Assembly (NCBI GenBank): GCA_964411565.1
Contig: CAYPLB010000003.1
Span: 29,953 to 93,952, forward strand
DNA from: Candidatus Woesearchaeota archaeon
GTDB lineage: Archaea > Nanobdellota > Nanobdellia > SCGC-AAA011-G17 > GW2011-AR17
Reading direction: 5' to 3'
DNA length: 64,000 nt
The position numbers and the translations under genes are program-made. Each line of letters starts with the position of its first letter. The first letter of the stretch is position 1. The notes beneath the pieces were generated by a model that saw only the letters and a list, made by a program, of their open reading frames with translations, was not told the origin of the DNA and made no database searches. Below, piece after piece: positions 1,668 through 64,000 of this stretch.

Positions 1668-1793
1668 CCCTGTCTGGCTCAACGGTAGAGCACTCGGCTG
1701 TAGATCAATTCGCCCTTTGACAGTGCAAATGCATAGGATGAAAAAGGGAGAGCCGTACCCGAGCGGTTCCTGGTTCAAATCCGGGGGCAGGGA
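1668..1793 (+). tRNA. tRNA-Tyr (anticodon GTA) with 54-nt intron at canonical 37/38 position
   Basis: Acceptor CCCTGTC/GGCAGGG, D-arm GCTC-AACGGTA-GAGC, anticodon stem CTCGG/CCGAG with loop CTGTAG|C, T-arm CCTGG-TTCAAAT-CCGGG, discriminator A, no encoded CCA. Intron 1704-1757 interrupts after position 37. Confidence 0.7.
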
Positions 1794-4209: not shown

Positions 4210-5316
4210 TTATTTTAAATGAAATTCTACGATATCATCATCTTCTAAACTATATTCAAGACCTACTTTTTGGCCATCATGTTTAGCACCTTTACCCCAA
4301 ACTCTAGCATAACGAAATTTGTTATAGAAATCTTTGTGAATAGTAATAGCTAATTTTTTAATATTATCACCTTTGTGTAAAGCTACTGGTGGCCAATCTT
4401 TATCTTTACCAGGAGTTTTTGTAAAAACTTTTATTAAACCCAAAGCATCAAATATTTGTTTTTTTAATTCTTCAATACCTATTCCAGTTTTTGCTGATAT
4501 ACCTTTTCCTTTAATATCTGATTTGTTGTGAATAATAAGTAAAGGTAAGAAAACTAAAGCTTCGTTCAAAACATCAGCAAGGTCTTCAATAGTAACTTTT
4601 TCATAAGCTGTAATAATAGCATTGTGATATCCGTGAGACTGTAACATCTTTGTTGCTTGTCTTACGGGAAAATTAAAATATTTTTTACCTAGAAATTCTA
4701 TACCACCTTGACCTTGTTTTTTTATTATTACTTTTGGCTTTTCAGCATTAAGTCTTATTTGAGCTTTTTCAAATTCATTATATAATAAGTCTAATTGCTC
4801 TTTTTCATCTTGAGTGTTATCAATAACAAAAATAATTAAATCTGCACTTCTCATTGCACTAAAATATGCAGGACCATCACCTTTGTAAGCAAAATCTTCA
4901 AATATTGCAGGCATTTCAACTATTTGAATACCAACACCTTTGTAATCCATAATTCCAAATTCAGGTTTTACTGTAGTATATTTATATTCAGCAATAGTTG
5001 GTTTTGCATTTGTCAAAACTGTAACTAAAGAAGATTTTCCAGCATTTGTTAAAGAAACTAAAACAACTTGAGCAGCACCTTCTTTTTTTATTGTTAAATG
5101 TTTACCTCTACCCTTTGAGGTCTGTCTAGTTTTTTCAATTTGAGTTCTTAATTTAGAAAGTTTTTGTTTGATTTGTGCTCTAAGATTCTCAGCACCCTTA
5201 TGACTAGGAGCTGTTTTAAGCATTTCTTCTAAGCCTGCAATTTTCTCAGCAATGGTACTAGCTTCATGATATTTTTTTTCAGCTCTAAAATATTCAGGTT
5301 TTGCATTAATTGGCAT
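4210..5316 (-). CDS. Obg/DRG-family GTP-binding protein with C-terminal TGS domain
   Basis: P-loop VVLVSLTNAGKSSL, G-domain motifs, and a C-terminal TGS-like segment (...KVGLEYSLEDDDIVEFHLK). Length 368 aa is typical of archaeal DRG. Confidence 0.8.
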   Translation of the reverse strand: MPINAKPEYFRAEKKYHEASTIAEKIAGLEEMLKTAPSHKGAENLRAQIKQKLSKLRTQIEKTRQTSKGRGKHLTIKKEGAAQVVLVSLTNAGKSSLVTVLTNAKPTIAEYKYTTVKPEFGIMDYKGVGIQIVEMPAIFEDFAYKGDGPAYFSAMRSADLIIFVIDNTQDEKEQLDLLYNEFEKAQIRLNAEKPKVIIKKQGQGGIEFLGKKYFNFPVRQATKMLQSHGYHNAIITAYEKVTIEDLADVLNEALVFLPLLIIHNKSDIKGKGISAKTGIGIEELKKQIFDALGLIKVFTKTPGKDKDWPPVALHKGDNIKKLAITIHKDFYNKFRYARVWGKGAKHDGQKVGLEYSLEDDDIVEFHLK

Positions 5317-10231: not shown

Positions 10232-10337
10232 GGGGTAGTAGTTTAACTTGGCTAGAGCAGTCGGCTCCAACCCGACAGATCGGGGAAACAATCTACATAA
10301 TGGAGAATGTTCCGAAATTCAAATCCCTGCTACCCCA
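10232..10337 (+). tRNA. tRNA-Trp (anticodon CCA) with a putative 32-nt non-canonical intron between positions 53 and 54
   Basis: Acceptor GGGGTAG/CTACCCC, D-arm GTTT-AACTTGGCTA-GAGC (two G-U pairs), anticodon arm GTCGG-CTCCAAC-CCGAC, variable AGAT, T-stem CGGGG/CCCTG, T-loop TTCAAAT, discriminator A. A 32-nt insertion (10286-10317) separates the T-stem 5' strand from the T-loop. The reverse strand also gives an anticodon arm (UGG) but no T-arm. Confidence 0.5.
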
Positions 10338-11004
10338 TTTTTTTAAAAGTTTCATATTTTTTTAACTTTCTTTCATTTTTAGGTTCAATTTGCTCAAAGA
10401 AATTTTTTATACTTGTACTTTTTCTAATTACTACTTGATGAGTATTACCTCTACAGATATAGGAAGAAATACCTAATTTTTTTAATACTTCATGTATGTC
10501 TTTTGCAAATTTATAAGACTTCATTGAATATTTAATCAAAATATAATTATAACCTTTATCTCTTTGTAAAGTTACACACCCATCAGTGTCAAATAAACCT
10601 CTAAGAAATGCAGCAAGATGAGTATTTTTTGAAAGTAAAGAATGAGGTAATCTAAGATTTGTTTTAGGACCTACAGGACATTGAAGATAAATTGAAAGAA
10701 AATTAAAAATCGTTTTTGATCTACCTCTTAAAGTATAACAATTACCAAAAGTTTCATGTTTTAAATTTATTCCAAAAAGATCTTTAAATAAATAATCTAT
10801 TCTTGCCATATATTTAACATCAAATCTGGAATCTCCTGCATATGTAAAACAATAGTCAGATTTTTTAGAATCACACCTTAAACATCCATCTCCATAATGA
10901 ATCCCTAAGAACTCAGAAAGTTTTATGTCCATTTTTTTGGGAAGAATTATTCCTCTAGATAAATCGTTTCTACCTCTTTTTATAATATTAATATCAAAAT
11001 CCAT
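10330..11004 (-). CDS. free-standing LAGLIDADG homing endonuclease
   Basis: Two LAGLIDADG-type motifs (LGIHYGDGC and LRGLFDTDGC) spaced as in double-motif enzymes. The 3' end overlaps the last 8 nt of tRNA-Trp on the opposite strand. Confidence 0.75.
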   Translation of the reverse strand: MDFDINIIKRGRNDLSRGIILPKKMDIKLSEFLGIHYGDGCLRCDSKKSDYCFTYAGDSRFDVKYMARIDYLFKDLFGINLKHETFGNCYTLRGRSKTIFNFLSIYLQCPVGPKTNLRLPHSLLSKNTHLAAFLRGLFDTDGCVTLQRDKGYNYILIKYSMKSYKFAKDIHEVLKKLGISSYICRGNTHQVVIRKSTSIKNFFEQIEPKNERKLKKYETFKKMG

Positions 11005-11088
11005 TAAATATGTTCAAAGAAAAGAGATTAATAATCTTTTACTAGAAAAAACTGAAAATATTTCAAAATTTTTGAAAAGTTTTCAGAA

Positions 11089-11538
11089 TCAAGCAAAAGA
11101 AGAACTTGATTGAGAAACAGATTTTTCTATTTCAATTTTAAAATCAGGTTTTATTTTGTAAACATGATTATGTTTATTATATTCCATTTCATCAACAGCA
11201 TATCCAGTAATAATTGTACTGTCTGTTTTGAAATCATAAATAATAGAAAACTCTACATCTTGTTCTAATAATTCTAAATATTTATTGAATTTTGTTTCAA
11301 ATTCACTTTGAAAATTAGAGGAAGATGCTTCCTTTGCAGCAAGATTTGCTGAGAGTTCAATATAATAAATATCTTTTTCAGCTTCAAAATAAGTGTTAAA
11401 TAATTCAATTTCTTTTTCTCCAAGATATAAATCAGATCCCCCAGGAGAATTTTTCCCAGTATTACCATAAAACATAAAGAGAGCTATAATGAAACCTAAA
11501 CATACAATGTACATGAAAACAGCTGCTCTTTTATTCAT
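11089..11538 (-). CDS. hypothetical N-terminally anchored protein in pilus-like locus
   Basis: MNKRAAVFMYIVCLGFIIALFMF signal-anchor; 4-nt start/stop overlap with the next gene. Confidence 0.4.
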   Translation of the reverse strand: MNKRAAVFMYIVCLGFIIALFMFYGNTGKNSPGGSDLYLGEKEIELFNTYFEAEKDIYYIELSANLAAKEASSSNFQSEFETKFNKYLELLEQDVEFSIIYDFKTDSTIITGYAVDEMEYNKHNHVYKIKPDFKIEIEKSVSQSSSSFA

Positions 11539-12086
11539 TCGTAAACCTCCAAAACAACTTTTAATTTTTTATTACCATCAACTTCAGGAATATTAAGTTC
11601 AGCACTATAAGGATTGTCTATGTCAATTATAATAGGTGTACAAAAGAAAATCATTTTATCTTCTTCATTATATACACTAATATACCAATCTGAAGAAATT
11701 GGATCAAGATAAGTTTCTAAATAAGCTACTAAAACATCATCACAAGATAATCTATCTGAAAATTCAGATTTTAAAAATCCATTAAATAAAAAACCATCTT
11801 GAGGCGAAGGATAATTCCTACCTGTGTAAGACAATATTTCTCCTAATGTATAATCATCATCAATTTGAAGTTTCATTAAATTAATTAAGTCAGTATCTAA
11901 AAATTCTGCGTCCATAGCATTTACTTCATTATTATTTGGAAGAATTGAATCCATTATATTTCCAACACTAAATTTAGAAACAAAATTAAAAGCTATTAAA
12001 ATAACAATAATCACTGCAAGAATAACTAGAGCAGTTCCAAACTCTGTCCAATCATCGAACATTGCAAATCCTTTTTTCTTTAACAT
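11535..12086 (-). CDS. prepilin-like protein with class III signal peptide
   Basis: MLKKKG|FAMFDDWTEFGTALVILAVIIVILIAF: basic N-terminus, [KR]G cleavage motif, hydrophobic helix. Confidence 0.55.
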   Translation of the reverse strand: MLKKKGFAMFDDWTEFGTALVILAVIIVILIAFNFVSKFSVGNIMDSILPNNNEVNAMDAEFLDTDLINLMKLQIDDDYTLGEILSYTGRNYPSPQDGFLFNGFLKSEFSDRLSCDDVLVAYLETYLDPISSDWYISVYNEEDKMIFFCTPIIIDIDNPYSAELNIPEVDGNKKLKVVLEVYE

Positions 12087-50817: not shown

Positions 50818-51675
50818 TTAATTTCCTTTCTCCCATAAATCACCAGCTTTATTGAAAGCTAATTTCCTTTGGAATTTAGAGTTCTTTACATAAATTTGAG
50901 TTGTGCCAATGTCAGAATGACCAGCATATGATTTGATTAGAAAAGAATCTACACCTTCATCAGCCATATGTTGTAACCTAGTGTGTCTTAACATGTGAGG
51001 CCTTAAATCTCTGTTTAAAATCTCCCTACCATATTTTTTTAAATGATACCATACAGTGATAGGTTTTATTATAAAAATTTTCTCAGAAGGATTTATGAGC
51101 TTTTTAGAATCTAGATATTCTTCAAGTAAAACTTTTGTAGAATCTTGGAAATAAACAGTTCTAGGTTTCTTACCCTTGCCCATCAAAGTAGCTTCTTTAA
51201 TATCTAAATCAATATCCTTAAGTTGTAAATTTGTTAATTCAGAAACTCTAGCACCAGTATCATAAAGAAATTTAATGATTAATTTGTCTCTTGGCTTTTT
51301 AATATTATCAACAAGATAAAGTAATTCTTTCTTAGAAAGTACATAATTAGCTAATTTTTCTGCATCATTCAATGCAGTACTAGGCTTCTTGTTGAAATTA
51401 ACTATTCTTTTAATTAAATCTTCTTCATAACCCAAACTTTTGAGATACAAGAAAAGAGCATATCTAGCAATAGGATGGTTTCTTTCTTTGAGATATTTCT
51501 CATGTTTTTTTAAGAGTTTATCAAAATTTTCTTTCTTCTTCGTATCAGGAATATATTTTGCAAGAGTTAATACTCCTTCAATAGTTCTTTCGCCTAATTT
51601 CTTTTCAGAGTTCCTTTTAGAAAAATCTCTTAGAAAAGCTTCAAATTTTAGAATTTTTCTTCTTTTTAGTGTAGT
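50818..51675 (-). CDS. tyrosine recombinase/integrase (XerA-like); catalytic domain starts at TTG 51450, in-frame N-terminal extension to 51675 lacks a canonical start codon
   Basis: Catalytic residues: TGARVSEL (Arg I), HMLRHTRLQH (H-x-x-R) and the Tyr in GTTQIYV. The 75-codon upstream open frame (…FEAFLRDFSKRNSEKKLGERTIEGVLTLAKYI…) looks like a core-binding domain. Confidence 0.75.
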   Translation of the reverse strand, partial: TTLKRRKILKFEAFLRDFSKRNSEKKLGERTIEGVLTLAKYIPDTKKKENFDKLLKKHEKYLKERNHPIARYALFLYLKSLGYEEDLIKRIVNFNKKPSTALNDAEKLANYVLSKKELLYLVDNIKKPRDKLIIKFLYDTGARVSELTNLQLKDIDLDIKEATLMGKGKKPRTVYFQDSTKVLLEEYLDSKKLINPSEKIFIIKPITVWYHLKKYGREILNRDLRPHMLRHTRLQHMADEGVDSFLIKSYAGHSDIGTTQIYVKNSKFQRKLAFNKAGDLWEKGN

Positions 51676-53317: not shown

Positions 53318-53812
53318 TCAGTTTTTAGATAAGTATTTTTTCAATTTTCTGGCTGCTTTTTTAACTTCTTTTATGTTTTCTTCTGTTTTCATATTTTTTC
53401 TAGCATATTTCAAAATACTAAGGACATCAGGAAAATCTTTCATCCATTCATACTTTGGAAGTAAAGCAATATGAAAATGTGAAGGATTTACTTTACTTTC
53501 AATAGTTTCTTCTTTAAAGAGAATTTGAATATATTTGATATTAAGTACTTCCTTCATAGCTTTTCGAGTTTCACAAATAAAGTTGATAAATTCAATTCTT
53601 TCCTTTTTATTGAAATCAGCAAATCCCACAATATGTCTTTTAGAAGCAATAACAATAAATCCAGGAATAGGAATTTCATAATCTTGTTGAAGATCAAAAT
53701 ATTTTGTTTCAGAAATAACTCCACCAATTCTTTTTATTTCACCAGACTGTAAAGCACAACTTATACAATGAATGTCTTTTTCAATGTTTTCTATAGATTT
53801 AATCTTCGGCAT
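53318..53812 (-). CDS. HIT-family (histidine triad-like) protein
   Basis: N-terminal C-x-x-C (HCISCALQSGE) and the triad region PSHFHIALLP (third His replaced). Start trimmed to the internal Met. Confidence 0.6.
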   Translation of the reverse strand: MPKIKSIENIEKDIHCISCALQSGEIKRIGGVISETKYFDLQQDYEIPIPGFIVIASKRHIVGFADFNKKERIEFINFICETRKAMKEVLNIKYIQILFKEETIESKVNPSHFHIALLPKYEWMKDFPDVLSILKYARKNMKTEENIKEVKKAARKLKKYLSKN

Positions 53813-54416
53813 TTTTCTTTTTCTTCTTGGTTTTTTTAGAAGATTTAATATCAATTACTATCTCTTTTGAGCTTCCTGAAGGAATGATGATATCTTCATC
53901 AACTCTTACTAATACTTGATTTCCAGATCTTTTTCTTTTAACATATCCTATTTTTTCTAATAAGTTAATGTATTTGATTAAAGTACTTTTTACTTGTTCG
54001 TAAGATTTTTTAGGATAATTTTCCTCAGCAACTTCTCTAAATGAAAACCATTTATTTGGTCTTTCTCTACAAATACCAGAAATAACTCTCACTAAATCTC
54101 TTTGAGCATCAGTTAAACTATTCCACTTCTTTTCGTCATCTTCACTAGGTTCGAAAGTACTTTCATATATAGGTTCTACTGAACTCTCACTTATGGTATT
54201 CTGTTCAAGATTTATTAGTCTTTCATCTATATTTTCTAATTTATCAATAATACTCTGAAAATTACCATGATGAAATTCATCTCTATTTTTGAAATGATTT
54301 ATCCATTTAGAAATATGATCCATATCATTTCTAATATTTTGAAATGAACTTTTTACAGAATTATTAAATTCAGAAGAATGTTTCTGAATGCCTCTTTTTA
54401 TCAACCAATTTAACAT
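53799..54416 (-). CDS. coiled-coil plus C-terminal winged-helix DNA-binding protein (paralog A)
   Basis: C-terminal wHTH-like ...SYEQVKSTLIKYINLLEKIGYVKRKRSGNQVLV; similar N-terminal region to 54659..55405. Confidence 0.45.
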   Translation of the reverse strand: MLNWLIKRGIQKHSSEFNNSVKSSFQNIRNDMDHISKWINHFKNRDEFHHGNFQSIIDKLENIDERLINLEQNTISESSVEPIYESTFEPSEDDEKKWNSLTDAQRDLVRVISGICRERPNKWFSFREVAEENYPKKSYEQVKSTLIKYINLLEKIGYVKRKRSGNQVLVRVDEDIIIPSGSSKEIVIDIKSSKKTKKKKKNAED

Positions 54417-54470
54417 AGAATTATTACAAGAGTAGAAAGTTTATAAAGTTTTCGTCGAGAAAAAATGATT

Positions 54471-54562
54471 TGTAGACCACTTATAGACCGATTGTAGTCC
54501 GATTATAGTCCGATTGTAGACCAGTCTATAGACCGATCTATAGACCAGACTATAGCCCAAAA
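54471..54562. repeat. iteron-like array: 8 imperfect direct repeats of an 11-12-bp unit T(A/G)TAGACCGAT(C)
   Basis: Units read off in order: tgtagaccact, tatagaccgat, tgtagtccgat, tatagtccgat, tgtagaccagtc, tatagaccgatc, tatagaccagac, tatagcccaaaa. No spacers, so not CRISPR. Lies between the two paralogous wHTH genes, about 55 nt upstream of the 54416 start. Confidence 0.85.
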
Positions 54563-54658
54563 TAGATAATAATTATGTGAATAATGAATGATTAATTAAT
54601 AATAAAATATTGTCAATTTAAAATTATATATTAATATAAATAGATATAAAATGAGACT

Positions 54659-55405
54659 TCAAAAATCATCTCCTAGCTTCTTTTGAGAAGGATCTAAATT
54701 GTAAAATATCTGAATTAATTGTTTTTTTATGTTTAATCCTCTTATTTCTGAGGGAACTGAAAGTATGATTACTTTATTATTATATTTAGATTTAACTATA
54801 GGAATACCTTTCTTTATGAGACCACTAACATAAGTTCTTACACATCCAGAAGATATTTTGAGTTCTTTTGCTAAAGTTTCGTAAGTAACATGCTTAATTT
54901 GCTCTTCTTGCTGATAAATCACAAGAAAAGTCATAAATTCTTGTCTTGAGAGCTTACTTAAGATCCTTGGAAGATCTTCTTTAAAGCCTCGAATATCAAG
55001 TGAATAACCAGGAAGTGAATAACCAGGAAGTGAATAACCATCTAATGAAACCCCTTTATTTCCACTGGAGATTTCATTTTTTAGTAGTAAATCTTCTCTT
55101 TTAAAGCTAATTTCAGCCTTTTTTAGAGATTTAGAGACTATATTATCTTTATTTTTATTATCTTTATTATCCGAAAATGAGAGTTTAGAAGCCTCTAAAA
55201 CTTGAATTTTAGCTTCTAAAGCCTTAATTTTAGCATTTAAAGCCTCAATACTAGTATTTTGTTTAATAATATAATCTCTATTATGTCTAACTTCACCCTC
55301 TAATGCCTCGAAATGGTCCTTTACCCTCTTAAAAGACTTCTTTACAGCTTCCCTGAGATCAGATCCTAACATAAAGATAAGAAATAAAATGAGATATATA
55401 TACAT
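54659..55405 (-). CDS. coiled-coil plus C-terminal winged-helix DNA-binding protein (paralog B) with GYSLP x3 repeat
   Basis: C-terminal wHTH-like ...TYETLAKELKISSGCVRTYVSGLIKKGIPIV; internal 15-nt tandem repeat (55010-55055). Confidence 0.45.
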   Translation of the reverse strand: MYIYLILFLIFMLGSDLREAVKKSFKRVKDHFEALEGEVRHNRDYIIKQNTSIEALNAKIKALEAKIQVLEASKLSFSDNKDNKNKDNIVSKSLKKAEISFKREDLLLKNEISSGNKGVSLDGYSLPGYSLPGYSLDIRGFKEDLPRILSKLSRQEFMTFLVIYQQEEQIKHVTYETLAKELKISSGCVRTYVSGLIKKGIPIVKSKYNNKVIILSVPSEIRGLNIKKQLIQIFYNLDPSQKKLGDDF

Positions 55406-55473
55406 TTATGTGAATAATAAGTGAATAACCAAGTGCATAAGATGTGCATAATGAATATAATAAAAAGAAAAAT

Positions 55474-55926
55474 TTATCCAATATACTCTTCAGCCTTTTT
55501 ATCCTTAGTTACAGGAGTTTTTGGACTGATTGTTGGAATTCTTATATGAGGTGGTAAACCAACATCTTGAGCTAATGTTAATGCTTTTATTTGACATCTA
55601 ATTAAAACATTATTCATTACTTGTTGCATCATCTCAGGAGGTAATTGTTTTGATTTATTCCAACCTTTCATTAATTCATCAGATTTACCTTCAGGATCAT
55701 GAAAAACTAAATTACCAGCAATTTCAATAATAGCTTGATCAGGTTGATAATCTACTTTATATTCATAATAAAATCTTAGAACTTTTTCTTTCTTTCCACT
55801 TGAAATAGGTACGTCTTCTAACTTAAGATCTACAATAGTCATTCCATTATCTACTTTAATAGGAGCTTCTAATGTCTTCTTTTTCTCGATATTGATCTTG
55901 TCAAAACTAAATGATATAACTGGCAT
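55474..55926 (-). CDS. hypothetical protein
   Basis: 150 aa. Confidence 0.3.
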   Translation of the reverse strand: MPVISFSFDKINIEKKKTLEAPIKVDNGMTIVDLKLEDVPISSGKKEKVLRFYYEYKVDYQPDQAIIEIAGNLVFHDPEGKSDELMKGWNKSKQLPPEMMQQVMNNVLIRCQIKALTLAQDVGLPPHIRIPTISPKTPVTKDKKAEEYIG

Positions 55927-57742: not shown

Positions 57743-57997
57743 ATGAGTCGGATATCAAAAGAAAATTTAGAAAAAATAAAAAGTAATGTTTTAAGAGTTT
57801 TATTTGATGAGTCTCCAAGATCATTAAGTGCAACGAATATTGCAAATCAAGAAGCTAGAGATAAACAATTTATTTTGAAAATCTTAAAAGATTTAGAAAC
57901 TAAAAAAATAGTTAAAAATGTTACAAAAGATTTTTCAAGAAAAAGTTATTGGATTATGCATGAAGAAGCGTATAAAAAATATAAAGAATTACTTTAA
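57743..57997 (+). CDS. small putative winged-helix DNA-binding protein
   Basis: 84 aa; ...SATNIANQEARDKQFILKILKDLETKKIV is HTH-like. Confidence 0.4.
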   Translation: MSRISKENLEKIKSNVLRVLFDESPRSLSATNIANQEARDKQFILKILKDLETKKIVKNVTKDFSRKSYWIMHEEAYKKYKELL

Positions 57998-59045: not shown

Positions 59046-60419
59046 TTACTTTTTCTTTAACTTACCATTAAAAGATTTAAGAATTTTTTCTTTACCAGTC
59101 CAATTTAAAGCTTCTTTGAAAACTTCTTCAATTCTCATAACAGGTATAATTTTTATTTTGTTTAATTTAGTTTTTTCAATAACCAAATCTTTTTCATTTG
59201 ATTTAGGAATAATAACTCTTTTTAATCCAGCATCAATAGCTGCTTCTATCTTTGCAGTTACTCCACCTACAGCTAATACTTCTCCTCTCACAGATAAAGA
59301 ACCGGTCATAGCAGTATCTTGTCTAACTGGAACTTGTTTTAATGCAGATATAATTGAAGTTGCTACAGCAATAGAAGCTGAGTCACCTTCTACACCTTCA
59401 GTTGATTGAACAAATTGTATGAAAACATCATATTTTTCTCTCAAATCTTCTCCAAAATATTTTAGAACCAAAGCTGAAACATTCTTTACAGCTTCTTTTG
59501 CAATCTCACCTAATTTACCTGTTGCAACAAATTCAGTTTTTTTACCACCTGGAGTTACTTCTGATTCAATAGGTAAAACAATTCCTGAAAATGCAGTTTC
59601 TCCACCAATAACAGCTAAACCATTTACTCTACCTACTCTAATTCCAGATGTAACAATTACTTCATATTTCTTTTTTGCTTCAATATATTTATCAGCAATT
59701 TGTTGTTCTAAAGTTCTTGAAAGTTTTTTAGCTTCAGTAACATGTATAGCTTTAACATATTTTGATTTATCTTCTAAAGCTAAATCTCCTGCAGCTCTAA
59801 CTAATCCACCTAACTCTCTTAATCTACAAGTTAACTTACCAGAAGTAGAAGCCATTTTTCTTGCTTCATGTATAATTAATTCAACAGCTTCTTTAGAAAA
59901 ATGAGGTATTTTTTTATCTTTTACAACTTCTTGTGCAACAAAAATAGCTAATTTATTTCTATTCTCTGGAGTATCATTCATTGTATCATTCATGTAAACT
60001 TCATAACCATAACCCCTAATTCTTGATCTTAAAGCTGGATGCATATGTTTAACAGTTTCATAATTTCCTGCAGCCATTAAAATAAAATCTGTTGGTACTG
60101 GTTCTGATCTTGTCATTGCACCACTTGATCTCTCAGATTGTCCAGTGATAGGATATTTTTTTTCTTGTAATGCTGTAAGTAATTCCTGTTGTGAATGTTG
60201 AGTTAATGTTGAAATCTCATCAATAAATAAAACTCCACCAGAAGCTCTATGAATCATTCCAGGAATTAATCTTTCATGAGGAGGAGTTCCTAATCCACCA
60301 GAATTTTTACACAAAATACCATTTGCAAATAAATTACCTGTCTCTGTTGTTAGGTTGTATAAATATCCTTTAAATGGAATTTTTTCAATTTTTACAATTT
60401 TTTCCTTTTTTAAAGTCAT
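59046..60419 (-). CDS. lonB: LonB protease C-terminal fragment: 39-aa C-intein half, then C-extein (rest of the AAA+ module plus S16 protease domain)
   Basis: Starts [39 protein letters not shown]|[30 protein letters not shown]... and continues collinearly with archaeal LonB to the protease site ([30 protein letters not shown]). Confidence 0.85.
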
Positions 60420-61459
60420 TAGATAGAAAAGTTATATTTAATTATATATAAATCCTTTGATGTTAAATTCAATAAGTCTAATGTATAGTCATGAGTATAA
60501 CCTTTATCAATTAAATCAAAATATCTTTTTTCTTTTAAATATTTAAATTCTTCAAAAATTTTATCAAGTTTTTTTCCTTTATAATCACAATAATAAAGCT
60601 TAATATTTTCTTTAAAATTGTAAATATTACTAAATTTTGTAGAAATAGGAATTCTATAAACATAATGTTCTTTTTCTTTACTATAATTTATATAAATTTT
60701 ATTTGTTTTTATCTTTTTTCTATTAAAATATTTTTTAATTTGTTTAAGGTATTTAATTATGTTTAAATCATTGTTTTTCTTAGAAGTAATACCAAATTCT
60801 AAAGAATTTAAACTAGTTCCTGAAACATGCATTTTAGGTATCCCAATCTCAGATCCAAATAAAGCACCATAGAAATAATCTTCAATTTTAAGATCTACTG
60901 AAACCCATTTTGGAATTTTCATAATAGTTTTAGTTTTTTTACCAATTGGAGAACCAAGTGCTTTAAAAAACCTTATAACTTTTCGATTTGTATTTTGATA
61001 AGACCAAGATTCACCATATTCTCCACCTTCAATTTCTCTAGAGTTTAGTTCAATATCTATTCCAAAAATAATATTTAAATCTCTTTTGAATTCATATAAA
61101 GCAAATTTCTCAGAACTTGAAAGGAAAATAGCATTAAGATTTCCAAAAATTCCTCCATCACCGAAAGAAGAACCAAATATTTTTGCAATCAAATGTATTC
61201 TTTTATGATTAAATTTTAAAGGTATTAATCTTCTTTTTTTTAGCCAATTTACAGTTTGAATAGGAATAGGTTTATGTTTTCCAGCATGCCACCATCTTGT
61301 TTTGTGATAAGGTTGATTCATTAATTTAGCAATTTTTTTATATCCAAATTCAGGATTTTCTTGTTTAATTTTTTTATATTCATAATATAATCTAGATTGC
61401 TCTTGCTGTGCTTTACTATAAGTATTGATAATATCATCTTCTTTAATTATATAATTCAT
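60419..61459 (-). CDS. free-standing LAGLIDADG-type homing endonuclease located between the two LonB halves
   Basis: [16 protein letters not shown] and [11 protein letters not shown] motifs. Own ATG and upstream TATA plus GC-rich motif. Different frame from the Lon pieces; its TAA overlaps the ATG of the downstream Lon fragment (TAATG). Confidence 0.7.
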
Positions 61460-61488
61460 ATGTTTAAATTATTGTTTTTTATATATAA

Positions 61489-61519
61489 GTGCTGCGCGCA
61501 CTCATGTCCAGTGTCCATA
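61489..61519 (-). promoter_or_regulatory. GC-rich motif (TATGGACACTGGACATGAGTGCGCGCAGCAC on the minus strand) abutting a TATA box upstream of the endonuclease gene
   Basis: Paralogous to the motif upstream of hef (33788-33811); same spacing to TATA and ATG. Confidence 0.5.
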
Positions 61520-61523
61520 CTTA

Positions 61524-62519
61524 TTAAGAATTTGTTAGAAGAATATTTCCAATTTTTAATTTTTCAGCATCAATATAATTAATATTTTTATTTTCACTTA
61601 TTGCAACTTTATGTTCAGGACTTACTAATAATTCCTTACCAGACTCAGTAATAATTTTGAATAAATTACACTCTTTGTAATGTTTATTTACAGATAAAAT
61701 CTCTGTATTTATAATTTTATTATCCTTAATAGCATTAATTACATATTTATCTTTTTCAAGGAATGTTGCTTCATAACCATCTTGTTTTATTAAGTCTTTA
61801 GTTTTTGTAAGTAAATTATTGACAAAAATTTCTATGTTAATTAAACTATTATTTATTTTTATTTTGTTACTACTTTGAAATGATTGTAAAGGATCGTGAA
61901 GTACATCTCCTAAAAGTGCACCAGCATGTGCACCAGTAGCATCATGGAAAGGTGCTTTCTTTTTCTTTGAACTATCTATTAATAATTTAGGAACAGTAGA
62001 TTGTCCACCAAGTTTTGAAGTTTTTTTACTTAAGTTTAAGAAAAGCATAAAACCAATAATAAATACCATACTTGTAATCATTGAAGCTGCATATATTACA
62101 GCAGAATCAAAAGGAAAAATTTGTCTTGAGTAAAAATAATAAGGAAGTATAGTTGCAATTAATACAAAAACAAATAATAAAATATTTTGATTTCTAAAGG
62201 AACCCATAGCATTCACTTTTGCCTGAGTAACTAAAGTCTTACCTTTTCCTCTAGGATAAGTCTTTATTAAAGGAACATTATCATCTGCAGGATTTGGAAA
62301 AGAAAGTACATCTTTAAGTTTTTCTTGAGGTAATAATTCAGCTAAAGCTTGACCAAGCATACTTTTTCCTGTACCAGGAGAACCAATAAGCAATATATTT
62401 CTTCTTTGATGTGCAGCTTTTTTAATTAAATTTACAGCACCATCTTGACCAATAACTTGACTAACAATATCTTTAGGTATTTTTATATCACTAGTATTGT
62501 TATATTTTAATGTAGACAT
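61524..62519 (-). CDS. lonB: LonB protease N-terminal fragment: N-extein (Walker A, membrane hairpin) plus 119-aa N-intein half
   Basis: QVIGQDGAVNLIKKAAHQRRNILLIGSPGTGKSMLGQALAELLP...VPKLLIDSSKKKKAPFHDATGAHAGALLGDVLHDPLQ matches LonB through the membrane insertion, then intein sequence up to the stop. Confidence 0.85.
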   Translation of the reverse strand: MSTLKYNNTSDIKIPKDIVSQVIGQDGAVNLIKKAAHQRRNILLIGSPGTGKSMLGQALAELLPQEKLKDVLSFPNPADDNVPLIKTYPRGKGKTLVTQAKVNAMGSFRNQNILLFVFVLIATILPYYFYSRQIFPFDSAVIYAASMITSMVFIIGFMLFLNLSKKTSKLGGQSTVPKLLIDSSKKKKAPFHDATGAHAGALLGDVLHDPLQSFQSSNKIKINNSLINIEIFVNNLLTKTKDLIKQDGYEATFLEKDKYVINAIKDNKIINTEILSVNKHYKECNLFKIITESGKELLVSPEHKVAISENKNINYIDAEKLKIGNILLTNS

Positions 62520-63202: not shown

Positions 63203-63249
63203 GTATTAATATAAAGAGGTAATAGTTTTTATAATTTGTTATTGTGTAG

Positions 63250-63670
63250 ACCCCCTCAGACCTTAATTTCCTATGGAAAGTTAAATAAAAAATTATAGAT
63301 TGTGTTCATTTTTCTTGTTTGTTTTATTTCAAATGGAGATATTAAAAATCTATTAAGAAAATTAATTATTTATAGAGGAAAAATGATTAAAAAAATTAGT
63401 CAAAAATTATTATTATTTTATTTGTTTTAAATCTTTAGAATTCTTTCTTTTTAGCTTTTAATTCTTTATTATTATTTTTTATATCTTTATATATATTTAT
63501 ATGTATTATTGTATTATTATTATTATTATAGAAAATCTATTTTGTAGTTGTTATTTTTTTGATGTTGTCATTTAAGAGTTCTATATGAAATGATGGGGTA
63601 AATTTATAAAGGAAGAAGAGTCTAAACACATTTAGATTGAGAAAAATGTTTCCAAAGGAAATAAGGGTCT
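63250..63670. promoter_or_regulatory. candidate replication origin (oriC): two inverted ORB-like elements flanking an AT-rich region directly upstream of orc1/cdc6
   Basis: 63250-63280 reads ACCCCCTCAGACCTTAATTTCCTATGGAAAG (reverse-oriented TTTCCATAGGAAA ... GGGGGT). 63648-63670 reads GTTTCCAAAGGAAATAAGGGTCT. Both have the dyad TTCCnnnGGAA plus a G-string; about 365 bp of about 85% AT, including (ATT)n, lies between them. Confidence 0.5.
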
Positions 63671-63728
63671 CTGTCTATATGTTAAACAAGATGAAAGTTT
63701 AAATAATGTTTTTGTTTAAGGAGAGTTT

Positions 63729-64000
63729 ATGGGAAAAGAGGGATTAAATCAATACTTTGAAGATTTTCTTAAAAAAGAACCATTCTTTTTAGATAAATCA
63801 GTGTTACAAGCTAATTATTCTCCTGATATAATATTACATAGAGAAGAACAAGTGAATAAAGTTGCAGGTATTTTAGCTCCTGCATTAAGAAAAGAAAAAC
63901 CTTCTAATATATTTTGTTATGGGAAAACAGGAACTGGAAAAACTTTGACAGCAAAACATGTAACTAATAGTATTATGGAAATTGCTAAGAAAAATGATTT
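63729..64000 (+). CDS. cdc6: Orc1/Cdc6 replication initiator (5' part; continues beyond the window)
   Basis: MGKEGLNQYFEDFLKKEPFFLDKSVLQANYSPDIILHREEQVNKVAGILAPALRKEKPSNIFCYGKTGTGKT: Orc1/Cdc6 N-terminus with Walker A. Confidence 0.9.
   Translation, partial: MGKEGLNQYFEDFLKKEPFFLDKSVLQANYSPDIILHREEQVNKVAGILAPALRKEKPSNIFCYGKTGTGKTLTAKHVTNSIMEIAKKND

What the first reader, a model, noticed from the sequence alone, without database searches (positions are those of the whole stretch)
54471..54562. Eight-unit iteron array between two paralogous coiled-coil/winged-helix genes
Eight direct repeats of an 11-12-bp unit T(A/G)TAGACCGAT(C) lie about 55 nt upstream of one wHTH gene and downstream of its paralog. 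Tandem iterons next to a DNA-binding protein gene are the classic signature of plasmid or viral replication origins and partition sites, and of autoregulated operators. This module is about 3 kb from a tyrosine recombinase.
Basis: partly seen in the sequence, partly recalled or inferred. Interest (0 to 1): 0.6.

Follow-up and report, generated by a model that had tools for sequence, protein, structure and literature searches.

The report
Binding-site array of an archaeal regulator pair
The eight short repeats are real and are most likely the docking sites of the DNA-binding protein encoded just downstream; this protein and its neighbouring paralog form a previously undescribed gene pair kept next to the chromosome's replication origin in many tiny (DPANN) archaea, not a plasmid or virus origin.

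Summary
The array is real. It has eight units at window 54470-54561: five spaced 11 bp apart and three palindromic units spaced 12 bp apart. On the gene strand the core reads GGTCTAYA. It ends 22 bp upstream of an archaeal TATA box that drives the 205-aa "geneB" as a leaderless mRNA.

GeneB and the upstream 237-aa "geneA" are true paralogs. Both have a ~70-residue N-terminal helix, a disordered linker and a C-terminal winged helix.

The locus is chromosomal, not episomal. The gene order Cdc6/oriC ... ArgRS - 150 aa - geneA - geneB - XerA recurs across Woese-, Pace- and Nanoarchaeota genomes. No plasmid or viral homologs were found.

In 12 of 14 related loci an 11-bp-phased array precedes geneB. 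Its motif changes together with geneB's winged helix. GeneA has its own array (units ending in CAC, window 55410-55456), and both that motif and geneA's recognition helix stay constant.

Both proteins also carry their motif inside their own linker-coding DNA, under DNA-level constraint.

Best reading: each array is the cognate multi-site operator of its own protein, assembling a self-linked, probably autoregulatory complex. A role as a centromere-like landmark near the origin is not excluded. The family is uncharacterised.

The parts
54468..54522 (-). Promoter-proximal half of the geneB-type array. Five direct repeats at 11-bp spacing: GGTCTACAATC, GGACTATAATC, GGACTACAATC, GGTCTATAAGT, GGTCTACAAAT.
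   Evidence: family D1, spacing 11, 11, 11
54523..54561 (-). Distal half of the geneB-type array. Three units at 12-bp spacing, each a palindrome (G)GTCTATAGAC(C). The outermost unit is degenerate (GGGCTATAGTCT).
   Evidence: family D2; inverted repeats I3-I5
54440..54469 (-). geneB core promoter. It contains a conserved spacer TTTTTCTCGACGAAAAC (BRE-like CGAAAAC at 54448-54454) and the TATA box TTTATAAA (54440-54447). The ATG is 24 nt after the TATA box, so the mRNA is leaderless or nearly so.
   Evidence: Read directly. The same block is conserved in L001 and L008. The assignment as an archaeal promoter rests on established knowledge of BRE/TATA spacing, not on a test.
53799..54416 (-). geneB, 205 aa. 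Conserved N-terminal MxxWLxKR, then a ~70-residue helix with the motif SFxNI(K/R)xDMxHISxWINHF and a His-rich stretch, an acidic disordered linker, a winged helix and a Lys-rich tail. Presumed binder of the array.
53318..53812 (-). 164-aa HIT-like protein. Its start overlaps the end of geneB, so it is probably co-transcribed in this lineage.
   Evidence: (gene calls 10957-11574 and 11561-12055 in L004)
54659..55372 (-). geneA, 237 aa (true start at the second ATG). Long N-terminal helix, disordered linker with GYSLPGYSLPGYSL, a winged helix with invariant recognition helix GCVRTYVSGLIKKG, and a conserved C-terminal DPxQKKLxDxF.
55410..55456 (-). geneA-type array. Five units (ATTCAT, ATGCAC, ATGCAC, ATTCAC, ATTCAC) at spacings 7, 11, 12, 11. 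It ends 6 nt before the geneA TATA box (about 55395-55402), so it overlaps the BRE position.
   Evidence: 5 hits against 0.57 expected, P 3e-4
54998..55040 (-). Intragenic geneA-type repeats. Three perfect copies of the 15-bp unit CCTGGTTATTCACTT, which encodes GYSLP and contains the same GGTTATTCACTT as the upstream array. Synonymous positions are frozen across genomes.
   Evidence: 12 of 12 identical codons against 14 of 64 elsewhere, P 3e-7
54573..54589 (-). geneA-type units (ATTCATTATTCACATAA) in the AT-rich spacer distal to the geneB array. They suggest cross-control of geneB by geneA.
   Evidence: larger equivalent in L008 4832-4888 and in L009-L012
50818..51450 (-). XerA-like tyrosine recombinase (catalytic domain only). 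A conserved neighbour of the pair.
63203..63729 (.). Context: the probable chromosomal oriC. Two inverted ORB dyads (TTTCCTATGGAAA at 63264-63276 and TTTCCAAAGGAAA at 63650-63662) flank an AT-rich stretch next to cdc6, which starts at 63730.

Best explanation
The array is the cognate multi-site operator ('iteron' array) of the coiled-coil/winged-helix protein encoded just downstream (geneB).

Inferred mechanism: geneB oligomerises through its ~70-residue N-terminal helix. Its winged-helix domains hang on flexible linkers, so they can dock on GTCTA half-sites in either orientation. The half-sites are spaced one helical turn apart and therefore lie on one face of the DNA. Cooperative filling of the eight sites builds a nucleoprotein complex that abuts the geneB promoter and sets transcription of geneB, and in this lineage also of the co-transcribed HIT-like gene. 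I expect negative feedback at high occupancy, but the sign is not shown.

The paralog geneA does the same at its own array, whose units end in CAC and overlap its BRE/TATA region. GeneA also has sites upstream of the geneB array, giving a two-protein circuit. The pair is a vertically inherited, origin-proximal chromosomal module of Woese-, Pace- and Nanoarchaeota-type DPANN archaea.

Shown: the array, its phasing and its position; paralogy and architecture; conservation of arrays across genomes; co-variation of motif and DNA-binding domain; DNA-level constraint on the intragenic copies.

Inferred: which protein binds which motif, cooperativity, and the regulatory outcome.
For: 1. The array is far beyond chance.

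2. It ends 22 bp upstream of a BRE/TATA element, and the ATG follows 24 nt after the TATA box.

3. Twelve of 14 related loci have a significant lag-11/22 array in the same place upstream of geneB. The motif differs by lineage: GGTCTAYA, TGTCTAYRA, TTGTTTAG/CTAAACAA, TTGTCAAG, CACTAAACAAT, GCGTYRGTAAY, CGTTCGGTAAA. In each fetched locus (about 7-21 kb) the lineage motif is concentrated at the geneB locus, with only scattered single matches elsewhere.

4. L010 and L011 give a natural experiment. GeneA is 91 % identical and keeps the same CAC motif. GeneB is 63 % identical, with its first 60 residues nearly identical (56/60) and most differences in the C-terminal half that holds the winged helix, and the array motif has switched from TTGTCAAG to TTGTTTAG.

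5. GeneA's recognition helix is invariant in 34 homologs. Its upstream CAC-type array is enriched in 12 of 13 loci, at spacings of 11 or 8 bp, and is always fused to the TATA box.

6. Where geneB is inverted and has no upstream array (L013, L015, L143, L144), its linker-coding DNA carries 3-7 copies of GTCCAAACAG(C). These are read in different frames (VQT, SKQ, RPNS). L144 has the reverse-complement motif GCTGTTTA upstream.

7. GeneA's linker-coding DNA carries its own motif with frozen synonymous sites.

8. Both predicted structures are a long helix, a disordered linker and a winged helix. The winged helices resemble MarR/ArsR/Fur-type DNA-binding domains.
Against: - No binding or expression data exist. 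Assigning geneB rather than geneA, Orc1 or another factor to the GTCTA motif rests on co-variation among related genomes, which are not independent samples.
- In this lineage the array sits upstream of BRE/TATA rather than over it. In archaea that geometry more often means activation, so the sign of regulation is open.
- In several genomes geneB is monocistronic. A protein that regulates only itself would have no obvious purpose, which points to a further role for the complex.
- The position of the sites relative to the promoter is not conserved (upstream in some lineages, intragenic in others).
- Only 64 kb of this genome was searched for further copies.
Confidence: 0.6

Rival explanations
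1. The array is a centromere-like or chromosome-anchoring site. The geneA and geneB complexes would mark the origin-proximal region for segregation, cohesion or tethering, and any autoregulation would be secondary. This would resemble ParB-parS, ParR-parC, AspA, SegB or RacA-ram sites.
For: - The pair stays roughly 3-9 kb from cdc6/oriC and beside XerA in distant lineages.
- The sites are linked to the protein's own gene but not to a fixed promoter position.
- GeneB's specificity drifts quickly together with its sites, which suggests few or no other targets.
- GeneB is monocistronic in several genomes.
- Eight to 14 phased sites is more than a simple operator needs.
- The N-terminus MxxWLFKKR is conserved. 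Its role as a membrane or partner-binding peptide is speculation.
- Archaeal SegB and AspA likewise bind sites upstream of their own cassettes, and whether those sites are centromeres or regulators is left open in the literature (PMC5120986).
Against: - No ParA/SegA/ParM-type motor lies within 10 kb in any locus table.
- There is no sequence relationship to ParB, AspA or SegB beyond the generic winged-helix fold.
- Most arrays abut a promoter, which regulation alone explains.
- There is no functional evidence.
Confidence: 0.2
2. The array is the iteron-type replication origin or partition site of an integrated or episomal plasmid or virus. The winged-helix proteins would be Rep or centromere-binding proteins and the recombinase would be its integrase.
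For: - Phased direct repeats with a 22-bp super-period lie next to a 96-bp AT-rich stretch and a winged-helix gene.
- A tyrosine recombinase is 3 kb away.
- GeneA gives weak sub-threshold hits to DnaD_N and HTH_11.
- Plasmid initiator and AspA structures appear among hundreds of generic winged-helix fold hits.
Against: - Synteny with housekeeping genes and oriC is conserved across genomes whose geneA proteins are only 29-60 % identical.
- There is no compositional anomaly.
- No viral or plasmid homologs were found.
- No Rep_3, ParA or ParM gene is present.
- The recombinase is XerA-like.
- A canonical Orc1/ORB origin lies 9 kb away.
Confidence: 0.04
3. The array is bound by another factor that acts on the geneB promoter or the local chromosome, for example geneA, Orc1/Cdc6 or XerA, and not by geneB.
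For: - In this window each ORB at oriC carries T(G/A)TAGAC(C/A) at its outer end, the same core as the array.
- GeneA-type units lie next to the geneB array.
- In L001, geneB-type units also lie upstream of geneA, so cross-talk exists.
Against: - The resemblance between ORB flanks and the array motif does not co-vary in L020 and L021, whose arrays use other motifs.
- GeneA's recognition helix is invariant while the geneB-array motif changes.
- Orc1 and XerA are conserved housekeeping proteins and are unlikely to switch specificity between sister genomes.
Confidence: 0.08
4. The array is a non-functional slippage-generated microsatellite in an AT-rich intergenic region.
For: - The window has many short tandem repeats (129 Tandem Repeats Finder rows).
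- Unrelated metagenomic contigs carry 11-bp GGTCTACA-type satellites.
Against: - The units are imperfect but keep a 5-6 bp core.
- Position, phase and promoter adjacency are conserved across 12 loci while the sequence turns over.
- Direct and palindromic arrangements of the same half-site are mixed.
- The motif is matched inside coding DNA with frozen synonymous sites.
Confidence: 0.03

Closest known systems
ParR-parC of plasmid R1, and omega protein of pSM19035 (type II / Ib partition-regulator systems; from my own knowledge)
   Same: Arrays of short repeats at about one helical turn (parC has ten 11-bp iterons; omega binds 7-bp heptads in direct or inverted orientation). They sit at the promoter of the binder's own operon, are bound cooperatively, and serve both as centromere and as autoregulatory operator.
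   Different: Those binders are ribbon-helix-helix proteins on plasmids with an adjacent ParM or ParA motor. Here the binder is a coiled-coil plus winged-helix protein on a chromosome with no motor gene nearby.
AspA (pNOB8) and SegB (Sulfolobus) archaeal segregation DNA-binding proteins (PMC5120986)
   Same: Archaeal site-specific DNA-binding proteins whose sites lie upstream of their own gene cassette. AspA is a winged-helix protein that spreads into a superhelical complex. For SegB, a dual centromere/regulator role is explicitly left open.
   Different: Both bind one or two palindromes, not 8-14 phased repeats. Both come with a ParA-type ATPase. There is no detectable sequence homology, and AspA appears only as a generic fold hit (E about 1e-2).
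Iteron plasmid initiators (RepA of pPS10, RepE of F, Pi of R6K; from my own knowledge)
   Same: An N-terminal leucine-zipper-like dimerisation element plus winged helix. Direct repeats and an inverted repeat lie next to the rep promoter. The protein autoregulates, and iterons co-evolve with protein specificity.
   Different: Rep proteins have two winged-helix domains (Pfam Rep_3) and bind 17-22 bp iterons beside a DNA-unwinding element on an autonomous replicon. Here there is a single winged helix, no Rep_3 match, an 11-bp unit and a chromosomal context with a separate Orc1 origin.
MarR/ArsR/Lrs14-type archaeal winged-helix regulators
   Same: They are the best structural matches of the C-terminal domains, and they are commonly autoregulated.
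   Different: Those are compact dimers on a single palindromic operator. No Pfam or NCBIfam model reaches threshold here. The 70-residue N-terminal helix, the disordered linker and the phased multi-site arrays are not features of those families.
ParB-parS within spo0J, RacA-ram sites of Bacillus subtilis, BldC (from my own knowledge; BldC from PMC5859096, title and abstract only)
   Same: A site for the protein lies inside or beside its own gene near the origin (spo0J parS). RacA is an HTH plus coiled-coil protein that binds origin-proximal sites. BldC binds direct repeats as head-to-tail cooperative multimers.
   Different: The folds and families differ and all are bacterial. None has two paralogs with separate arrays, or sites embedded in a linker-coding region.

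Membership tests
Iteron-type plasmid replication origin (Rep_3 initiators) | Tandem direct repeats (usually 17-22 bp) beside the initiator gene | tested here: inconclusive
   Eight repeats of 11-12 bp with a 22-bp super-period lie beside a winged-helix gene. The unit length is half the classical size.
Iteron-type plasmid replication origin (Rep_3 initiators) | Initiator with two winged-helix domains / Pfam Rep_3 | tested here: not met
   No Rep family hit in Pfam, NCBIfam or PHROGs. The models show a single winged helix.
Iteron-type plasmid replication origin (Rep_3 initiators) | Located on an autonomous or mobile replicon | tested here: not met
   Chromosomal synteny is conserved. No plasmid or viral homologs. 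GC content is normal.
Plasmid-type partition locus (ParR-parC, ParB-parS, omega) | Cluster of repeated sites at or near the promoter of the binder's own operon | tested here: met
Plasmid-type partition locus (ParR-parC, ParB-parS, omega) | Adjacent motor NTPase (ParA, ParM or TubZ) | tested here: not met
   None appears among the Pfam-annotated genes within 8-10 kb either side in seven locus tables.
Plasmid-type partition locus (ParR-parC, ParB-parS, omega) | Binder is a ParB-fold HTH or a ribbon-helix-helix protein | tested here: not met
   The binder is a winged helix of MarR/ArsR-like geometry.
Archaeal AspA-ParBA / SegAB | Sequence homology to AspA or SegB, with a partner ATPase in the cassette | tested here: not met
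   A profile search of PDB sequences gives no AspA or SegB hit at E <= 1. AspA appears only as a generic fold hit, rank 49. No ATPase gene is adjacent.
MarR/ArsR family transcription regulators | Family profile match above the curated threshold, and a compact dimer on one palindromic operator | tested here: not met
   Only sub-threshold HTH_11 (23.4 bits against 25) and DUF6293_C hits. The fold is similar, but the architecture and the site organisation differ.
Archaeal oriC (Orc1/Cdc6 with ORB elements) | ORB dyad TTCCnnnGGAAA pairs flanking an AT-rich unwinding element next to orc1/cdc6 | tested here: not met
   No ORB dyad occurs in or around the array. The element with these features lies at 63203-63729.
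Autoregulated operator of the adjacent DNA-binding protein (functional class) | Sites adjoin the binder's promoter, and site sequence co-varies with the binder's DNA-binding domain | tested here: met
   for geneB; for geneA
Autoregulated operator of the adjacent DNA-binding protein (functional class) | Demonstrated binding and an effect on transcription | not testable with these tools
   Needs EMSA or footprinting and in-vitro transcription or a reporter assay.

The most novel reading that the evidence does not exclude
GeneA and geneB form a DPANN-specific, motor-independent chromosome-landmark system. Two paralogous coiled-coil/winged-helix proteins each nucleate on their own phased repeat array, located in and around their own genes a few kb from oriC and beside xerA. 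The resulting complex would tether, pair or time the origin region. Possible links to other machinery are geneB's conserved N-terminal MxxWLFKKR peptide and geneA's C-terminal PIP-box-like QKKLxDxF tail, which might reach the membrane or division apparatus and PCNA. Binding sites embedded in the linker-coding DNA would be an unusual case of a protein-coding region that doubles as the protein's own docking array.
Probability: 0.17. Interest if true: 0.85.

Novelty: new variant of a known kind. Interest (0 to 1): 0.62.

Why it matters
DPANN archaea have tiny genomes, are mostly uncultivated, and their gene regulation and chromosome biology are almost unknown. This analysis identifies an uncharacterised, widespread protein family together with its likely DNA targets. 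The geneB profile finds 829 cluster representatives.

The cis-element logic has three parts:
- Arrays phased at 11 bp sit at the protein's own gene.
- The motif switches quickly together with one paralog's winged helix, while the other paralog's motif and helix stay frozen.
- Copies of the motif are embedded in the DNA that encodes the protein's own disordered linker.

This yields directly testable protein-DNA pairs that need no cultivation (DAP-seq or EMSA on synthetic genes). It also offers a natural series of specificity switches for studying how recognition evolves. The conserved position next to oriC and XerA makes the pair a candidate for the missing origin-proximal organising or segregation function in these archaea.

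Tried and rejected
1. Plasmid or virus origin. The search for related loci on viral contigs with both family alignments, and tblastn against PLSDB plasmids, found nothing. PHROGs gave only marginal, irrelevant hits.

2. Link to Orc1. In this window both ORBs at oriC end in T(G/A)TAGAC, like the array core. In L020 and L021 the ORB flanks do not follow those genomes' different array motifs, so I treat the resemblance as coincidence.

3. Metagenome-wide scan for three consecutive units (GGWCTAYAN3 x3). Their GC content is 25-66 %, they are dominated by GGGTCTACAGT-type satellites, and none encodes a geneA or geneB relative.

4. Function by homology. Pfam, NCBIfam, PHROGs, PDB sequence profiles and Foldseek against PDB give only generic winged-helix or coiled-coil matches.

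5. Paralogy by BLASTP and a shallow profile was not significant. It needed the 71-sequence alignment.

6. Literature searches found no description of this family or of arrays of this kind in DPANN.

7. dif/XerA site. I considered and rejected this on anatomy: it is a multi-copy, phased, lineage-variable motif rather than one 28-bp site. This was not tested further.

Full report
**Observation.**
The region 54470-54561 contains eight head-to-tail units with the core T(G/A)TAG(A/T)CC. Tandem Repeats Finder reports period 11 (7.7 copies) and period 22 (score 96). The repeat finder resolves two sub-arrays. One has 11-bp spacing (54470-54524). The other has 12-bp spacing (54517-54558), and its units are palindromes (G)GTCTATAGAC(C). 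Seven of the eight window matches to TRTAGWCCR are in the array, against 1.64 expected, and 0 of 100 shuffles reach 8.

**Local anatomy.**
Both flanking genes are on the minus strand. On that strand the units read GGTCTAYA. The innermost unit ends at 54468. It is followed by a conserved spacer (TTTTTCTCGACGAAAAC), a TATA box TTTATAAA (54440-54447), and the ATG of a 205-aa gene ("geneB") at 54416. This is the geometry of an archaeal promoter giving a leaderless mRNA; that reading is an inference from established BRE/TATA spacing.

The upstream gene ("geneA") is 237 aa, because homologs start at the second ATG. The first ATG lies inside geneA's own TATA box.

The organism is an AT-rich archaeon (28 % GC) with intron-containing tRNAs. 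Relatives are labelled Woesearchaeota, Nanoarchaeota or Pacearchaeota.

**The two proteins.**
AlphaFold models (pLDDT 73 and 77) show the same plan for both: one helix of about 70 residues, a disordered linker and a C-terminal winged helix. Foldseek matches the winged helices only to generic MarR/ArsR/Fur-type domains at E about 1e-3. No Pfam, NCBIfam or PHROGs model reaches threshold.

Paralogy is not visible by BLASTP or with a 5-sequence profile. A 71-sequence geneB alignment matches the geneA alignment with 93 % probability, E 3e-7, collinear over 173 columns. The geneB profile finds 829 cluster representatives. None carries a curated, family-specific functional name; the few source labels are generic or clearly unrelated automatic annotations.

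**Not a mobile element.**
The order PolD-small, Cdc6, [intergenic oriC]..., LonB, dCMP deaminase, 84-aa protein, ArgRS, 150-aa protein, geneA, geneB..., XerA-like recombinase, 112-aa protein recurs in the same species (L004-L007). It recurs in genomes with 60 % protein identity (L001 and the P0003 contig). It also recurs in more distant genomes (L008-L022, L143-L145), with some inversions.

The pair sits about 3-9 kb from cdc6 wherever the flank reaches it. GC content is flat. Neither protein has relatives in IMG/VR contigs or PLSDB plasmids. The recombinase best matches archaeal XerA.

The window's own origin is recognisable at 63203-63729: two inverted ORB dyads (TTTCCTATGGAAA and TTTCCAAAGGAAA) around an AT-rich stretch beside cdc6.

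**The array is a conserved class of element with a moving motif.**
In 12 of 14 loci the 115 bp ahead of the geneB promoter show significant lag-11 or lag-22 self-similarity. The repeated word differs by lineage:
- GGTCTAYA (window, L001)
- TGTCTAYRA (L008)
- TTGTTTAG/CTAAACAA (L009, L011)
- TTGTCAAG/CTTGACAA (L010, L012, L022)
- CACTAAACAAT (L014)
- GCGTYRGTAAY (L016, L018)
- CGTTCGGTAAA plus GTCTATAGAC (L017)

Direct and inverted copies of the same half-site are mixed. This fits winged-helix domains on flexible tethers. Within each fetched locus the lineage's motif is concentrated at the geneB locus, with only scattered single matches elsewhere.

The clearest case is L010 versus L011. GeneA is 91 % identical. 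GeneB is 63 % identical: its first 60 residues are nearly identical (56/60) and most differences fall in the C-terminal half that holds the winged helix. The array word differs while geneA's does not. This co-variation is my basis for assigning the array to geneB.

**A second array for geneA.**
Upstream of geneA, every locus has 2-14 units ending in CAC(A), such as cTTATGCACa, CTTAAACACA and CTCTGGACACA. They are spaced 11 or 8 bp apart and the last unit is fused to the TATA box as CACATAAA. The motif is enriched in 12 of 13 loci. The window copy is at 55410-55456. GeneA's recognition helix GCVRTYVSGLIKKG is invariant in 34 homologs, which matches the constancy of the motif. GeneA-type units also lie distal to the geneB array (window 54573-54589; L008 4832-4888; L009-L012). 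In L001, geneB-type units lie upstream of geneA. This suggests cross-control between the two genes.

**Sites inside the genes.**
The perfect 15-bp triple repeat in geneA (54998-55040) encodes GYSLP three times and contains GGTTATTCACTT, identical to a unit of the upstream array. Across six genomes, all 12 invariant residues of this segment use identical codons, against 14 of 64 elsewhere (Fisher P 3e-7). Distant homologs keep TTATTCATTCATTCA while the peptide changes to VYSFIHSF.

Where geneB is inverted and lacks an upstream array (L013, L015, L143, L144), its linker-coding DNA holds 3-7 copies of GTCCAAACAG(C). These are read in different frames (VQT, SKQ, RPNS). L144 has GCTGTTTA, the reverse complement, upstream.

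The conserved object is therefore a DNA word, tolerated in a disordered linker. The invariant rule is that each protein's sites are linked to its own gene.

**Interpretation.**
The best-supported reading (0.6) is that the array is the cognate, cooperative, multi-site operator of geneB and forms a self-linked, probably autoregulatory complex. GeneA does the same at its own array and also feeds into geneB. The sign of regulation is not established. Here the array lies upstream of BRE/TATA. In other lineages, and for geneA, it abuts or overlaps the BRE.

The main rival (0.2) is that the complexes are centromere-like or anchoring landmarks near the origin. Points in favour are the conserved position near oriC and XerA, the monocistronic geneB in several genomes, the fast private co-evolution of protein and site, and the number of sites. 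Points against are the lack of any motor gene and of any homology to known segregation proteins.

A plasmid or viral origin or partition site (0.04), another binder (0.08) and a neutral microsatellite (0.03) are poorly supported.

**Limits.**
There are no binding or expression data. Co-variation is read across related genomes that are not independent. Only 64 kb of this genome could be scanned for further arrays. The single metagenome scan was swamped by unrelated satellites.

Noticed in passing
window 63203-63729 (cdc6 starts at 63730, + strand, and runs off the window): Probable chromosomal oriC. Two inverted ORB dyads (TTTCCTATGGAAA at 63264-63276, TTTCCAAAGGAAA at 63650-63662) with C/G-strings flank a roughly 350-bp AT-rich repeat-laden stretch. 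The same layout occurs in L020 and L021. In this window each ORB's outer end reads T(G/A)TAGAC, like the array core, but this does not co-vary in relatives.
   Followed up: partly
window 59046-62519 (minus strand: ORFs 61524-62519, 60419-61459, 59046-60419): The LonB protease gene is split inside its AAA domain into three ORFs. The first is an N-fragment with a sub-threshold Intein_splicing hit. The second is a 346-aa ORF with no family match. The third is a C-fragment whose N-terminus looks intein-like (...NGILCKN|SGG). Relatives L020 and L021 have one 627-aa LonB, while L022 shares the three-ORF layout. This may be a split or degenerate intein.
   Followed up: partly
window 54998-55040: A perfect 15-bp x 2.9 tandem repeat inside geneA encodes GYSLPGYSLPGYSL. 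The identical DNA occurs in genomes with only 57-60 % protein identity, and it contains the geneA-type binding motif TTATTCAC.
   Followed up: yes
window 55410-55456: A second phased array (AT[GT]CAC units, spacings 7, 11, 12, 11) lies immediately upstream of the geneA TATA box.
   Followed up: yes
window 54448-54464; L009 about 4815-4832, L010, L011, L016-L018 upstream of geneB: A conserved element TTTCTCG(A/T)CGA(T)AAAAC accompanies the geneB arrays. It lies between array and TATA box in the window lineage but on the far side of the array in others. Its role is unclear; it could be a second promoter or a site for another factor.
   Followed up: partly
geneA C-terminus (window 54659-54700) and geneB N-terminus (window 54390-54416): GeneA ends in the conserved DPxQ(K/T)(K/R)LxDx(F/Y), which resembles a C-terminal PCNA-interacting (PIP-box-like) peptide. 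GeneB starts with the conserved MxxWLFKKR and has a His-rich stretch (HFKNRDEFHHGNF). No function was tested for any of these.
   Followed up: no
window 50818-51450: The XerA-like recombinase is only 205-210 aa (catalytic domain; it matches XerA model positions 90-259). Relatives have 245-288 aa with the N-terminal SAM-like domain. A 297-bp gap lies upstream of the gene.
   Followed up: partly
window 1668-1793 and 10232-10337: Two tRNA genes of 126 and 106 nt, presumably with introns, were found by Rfam but missed by ARAGORN in its default bacterial mode.
   Followed up: no
window 57743-57997 (+) and 55474-55926 (-): An 84-aa small winged-helix-like protein (divergent from ArgRS) and a 150-aa protein with no family match are both conserved in synteny with the geneA/geneB pair across all related loci.
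   Followed up: no
L023-L142 (metagenome contigs): 11-bp tandem satellites of the GGGTCTACAGT type recur in many unrelated contigs of about 40 % GC, often at contig ends. They are unrelated to this archaeon and no geneA or geneB homologs are present.
   Followed up: partly
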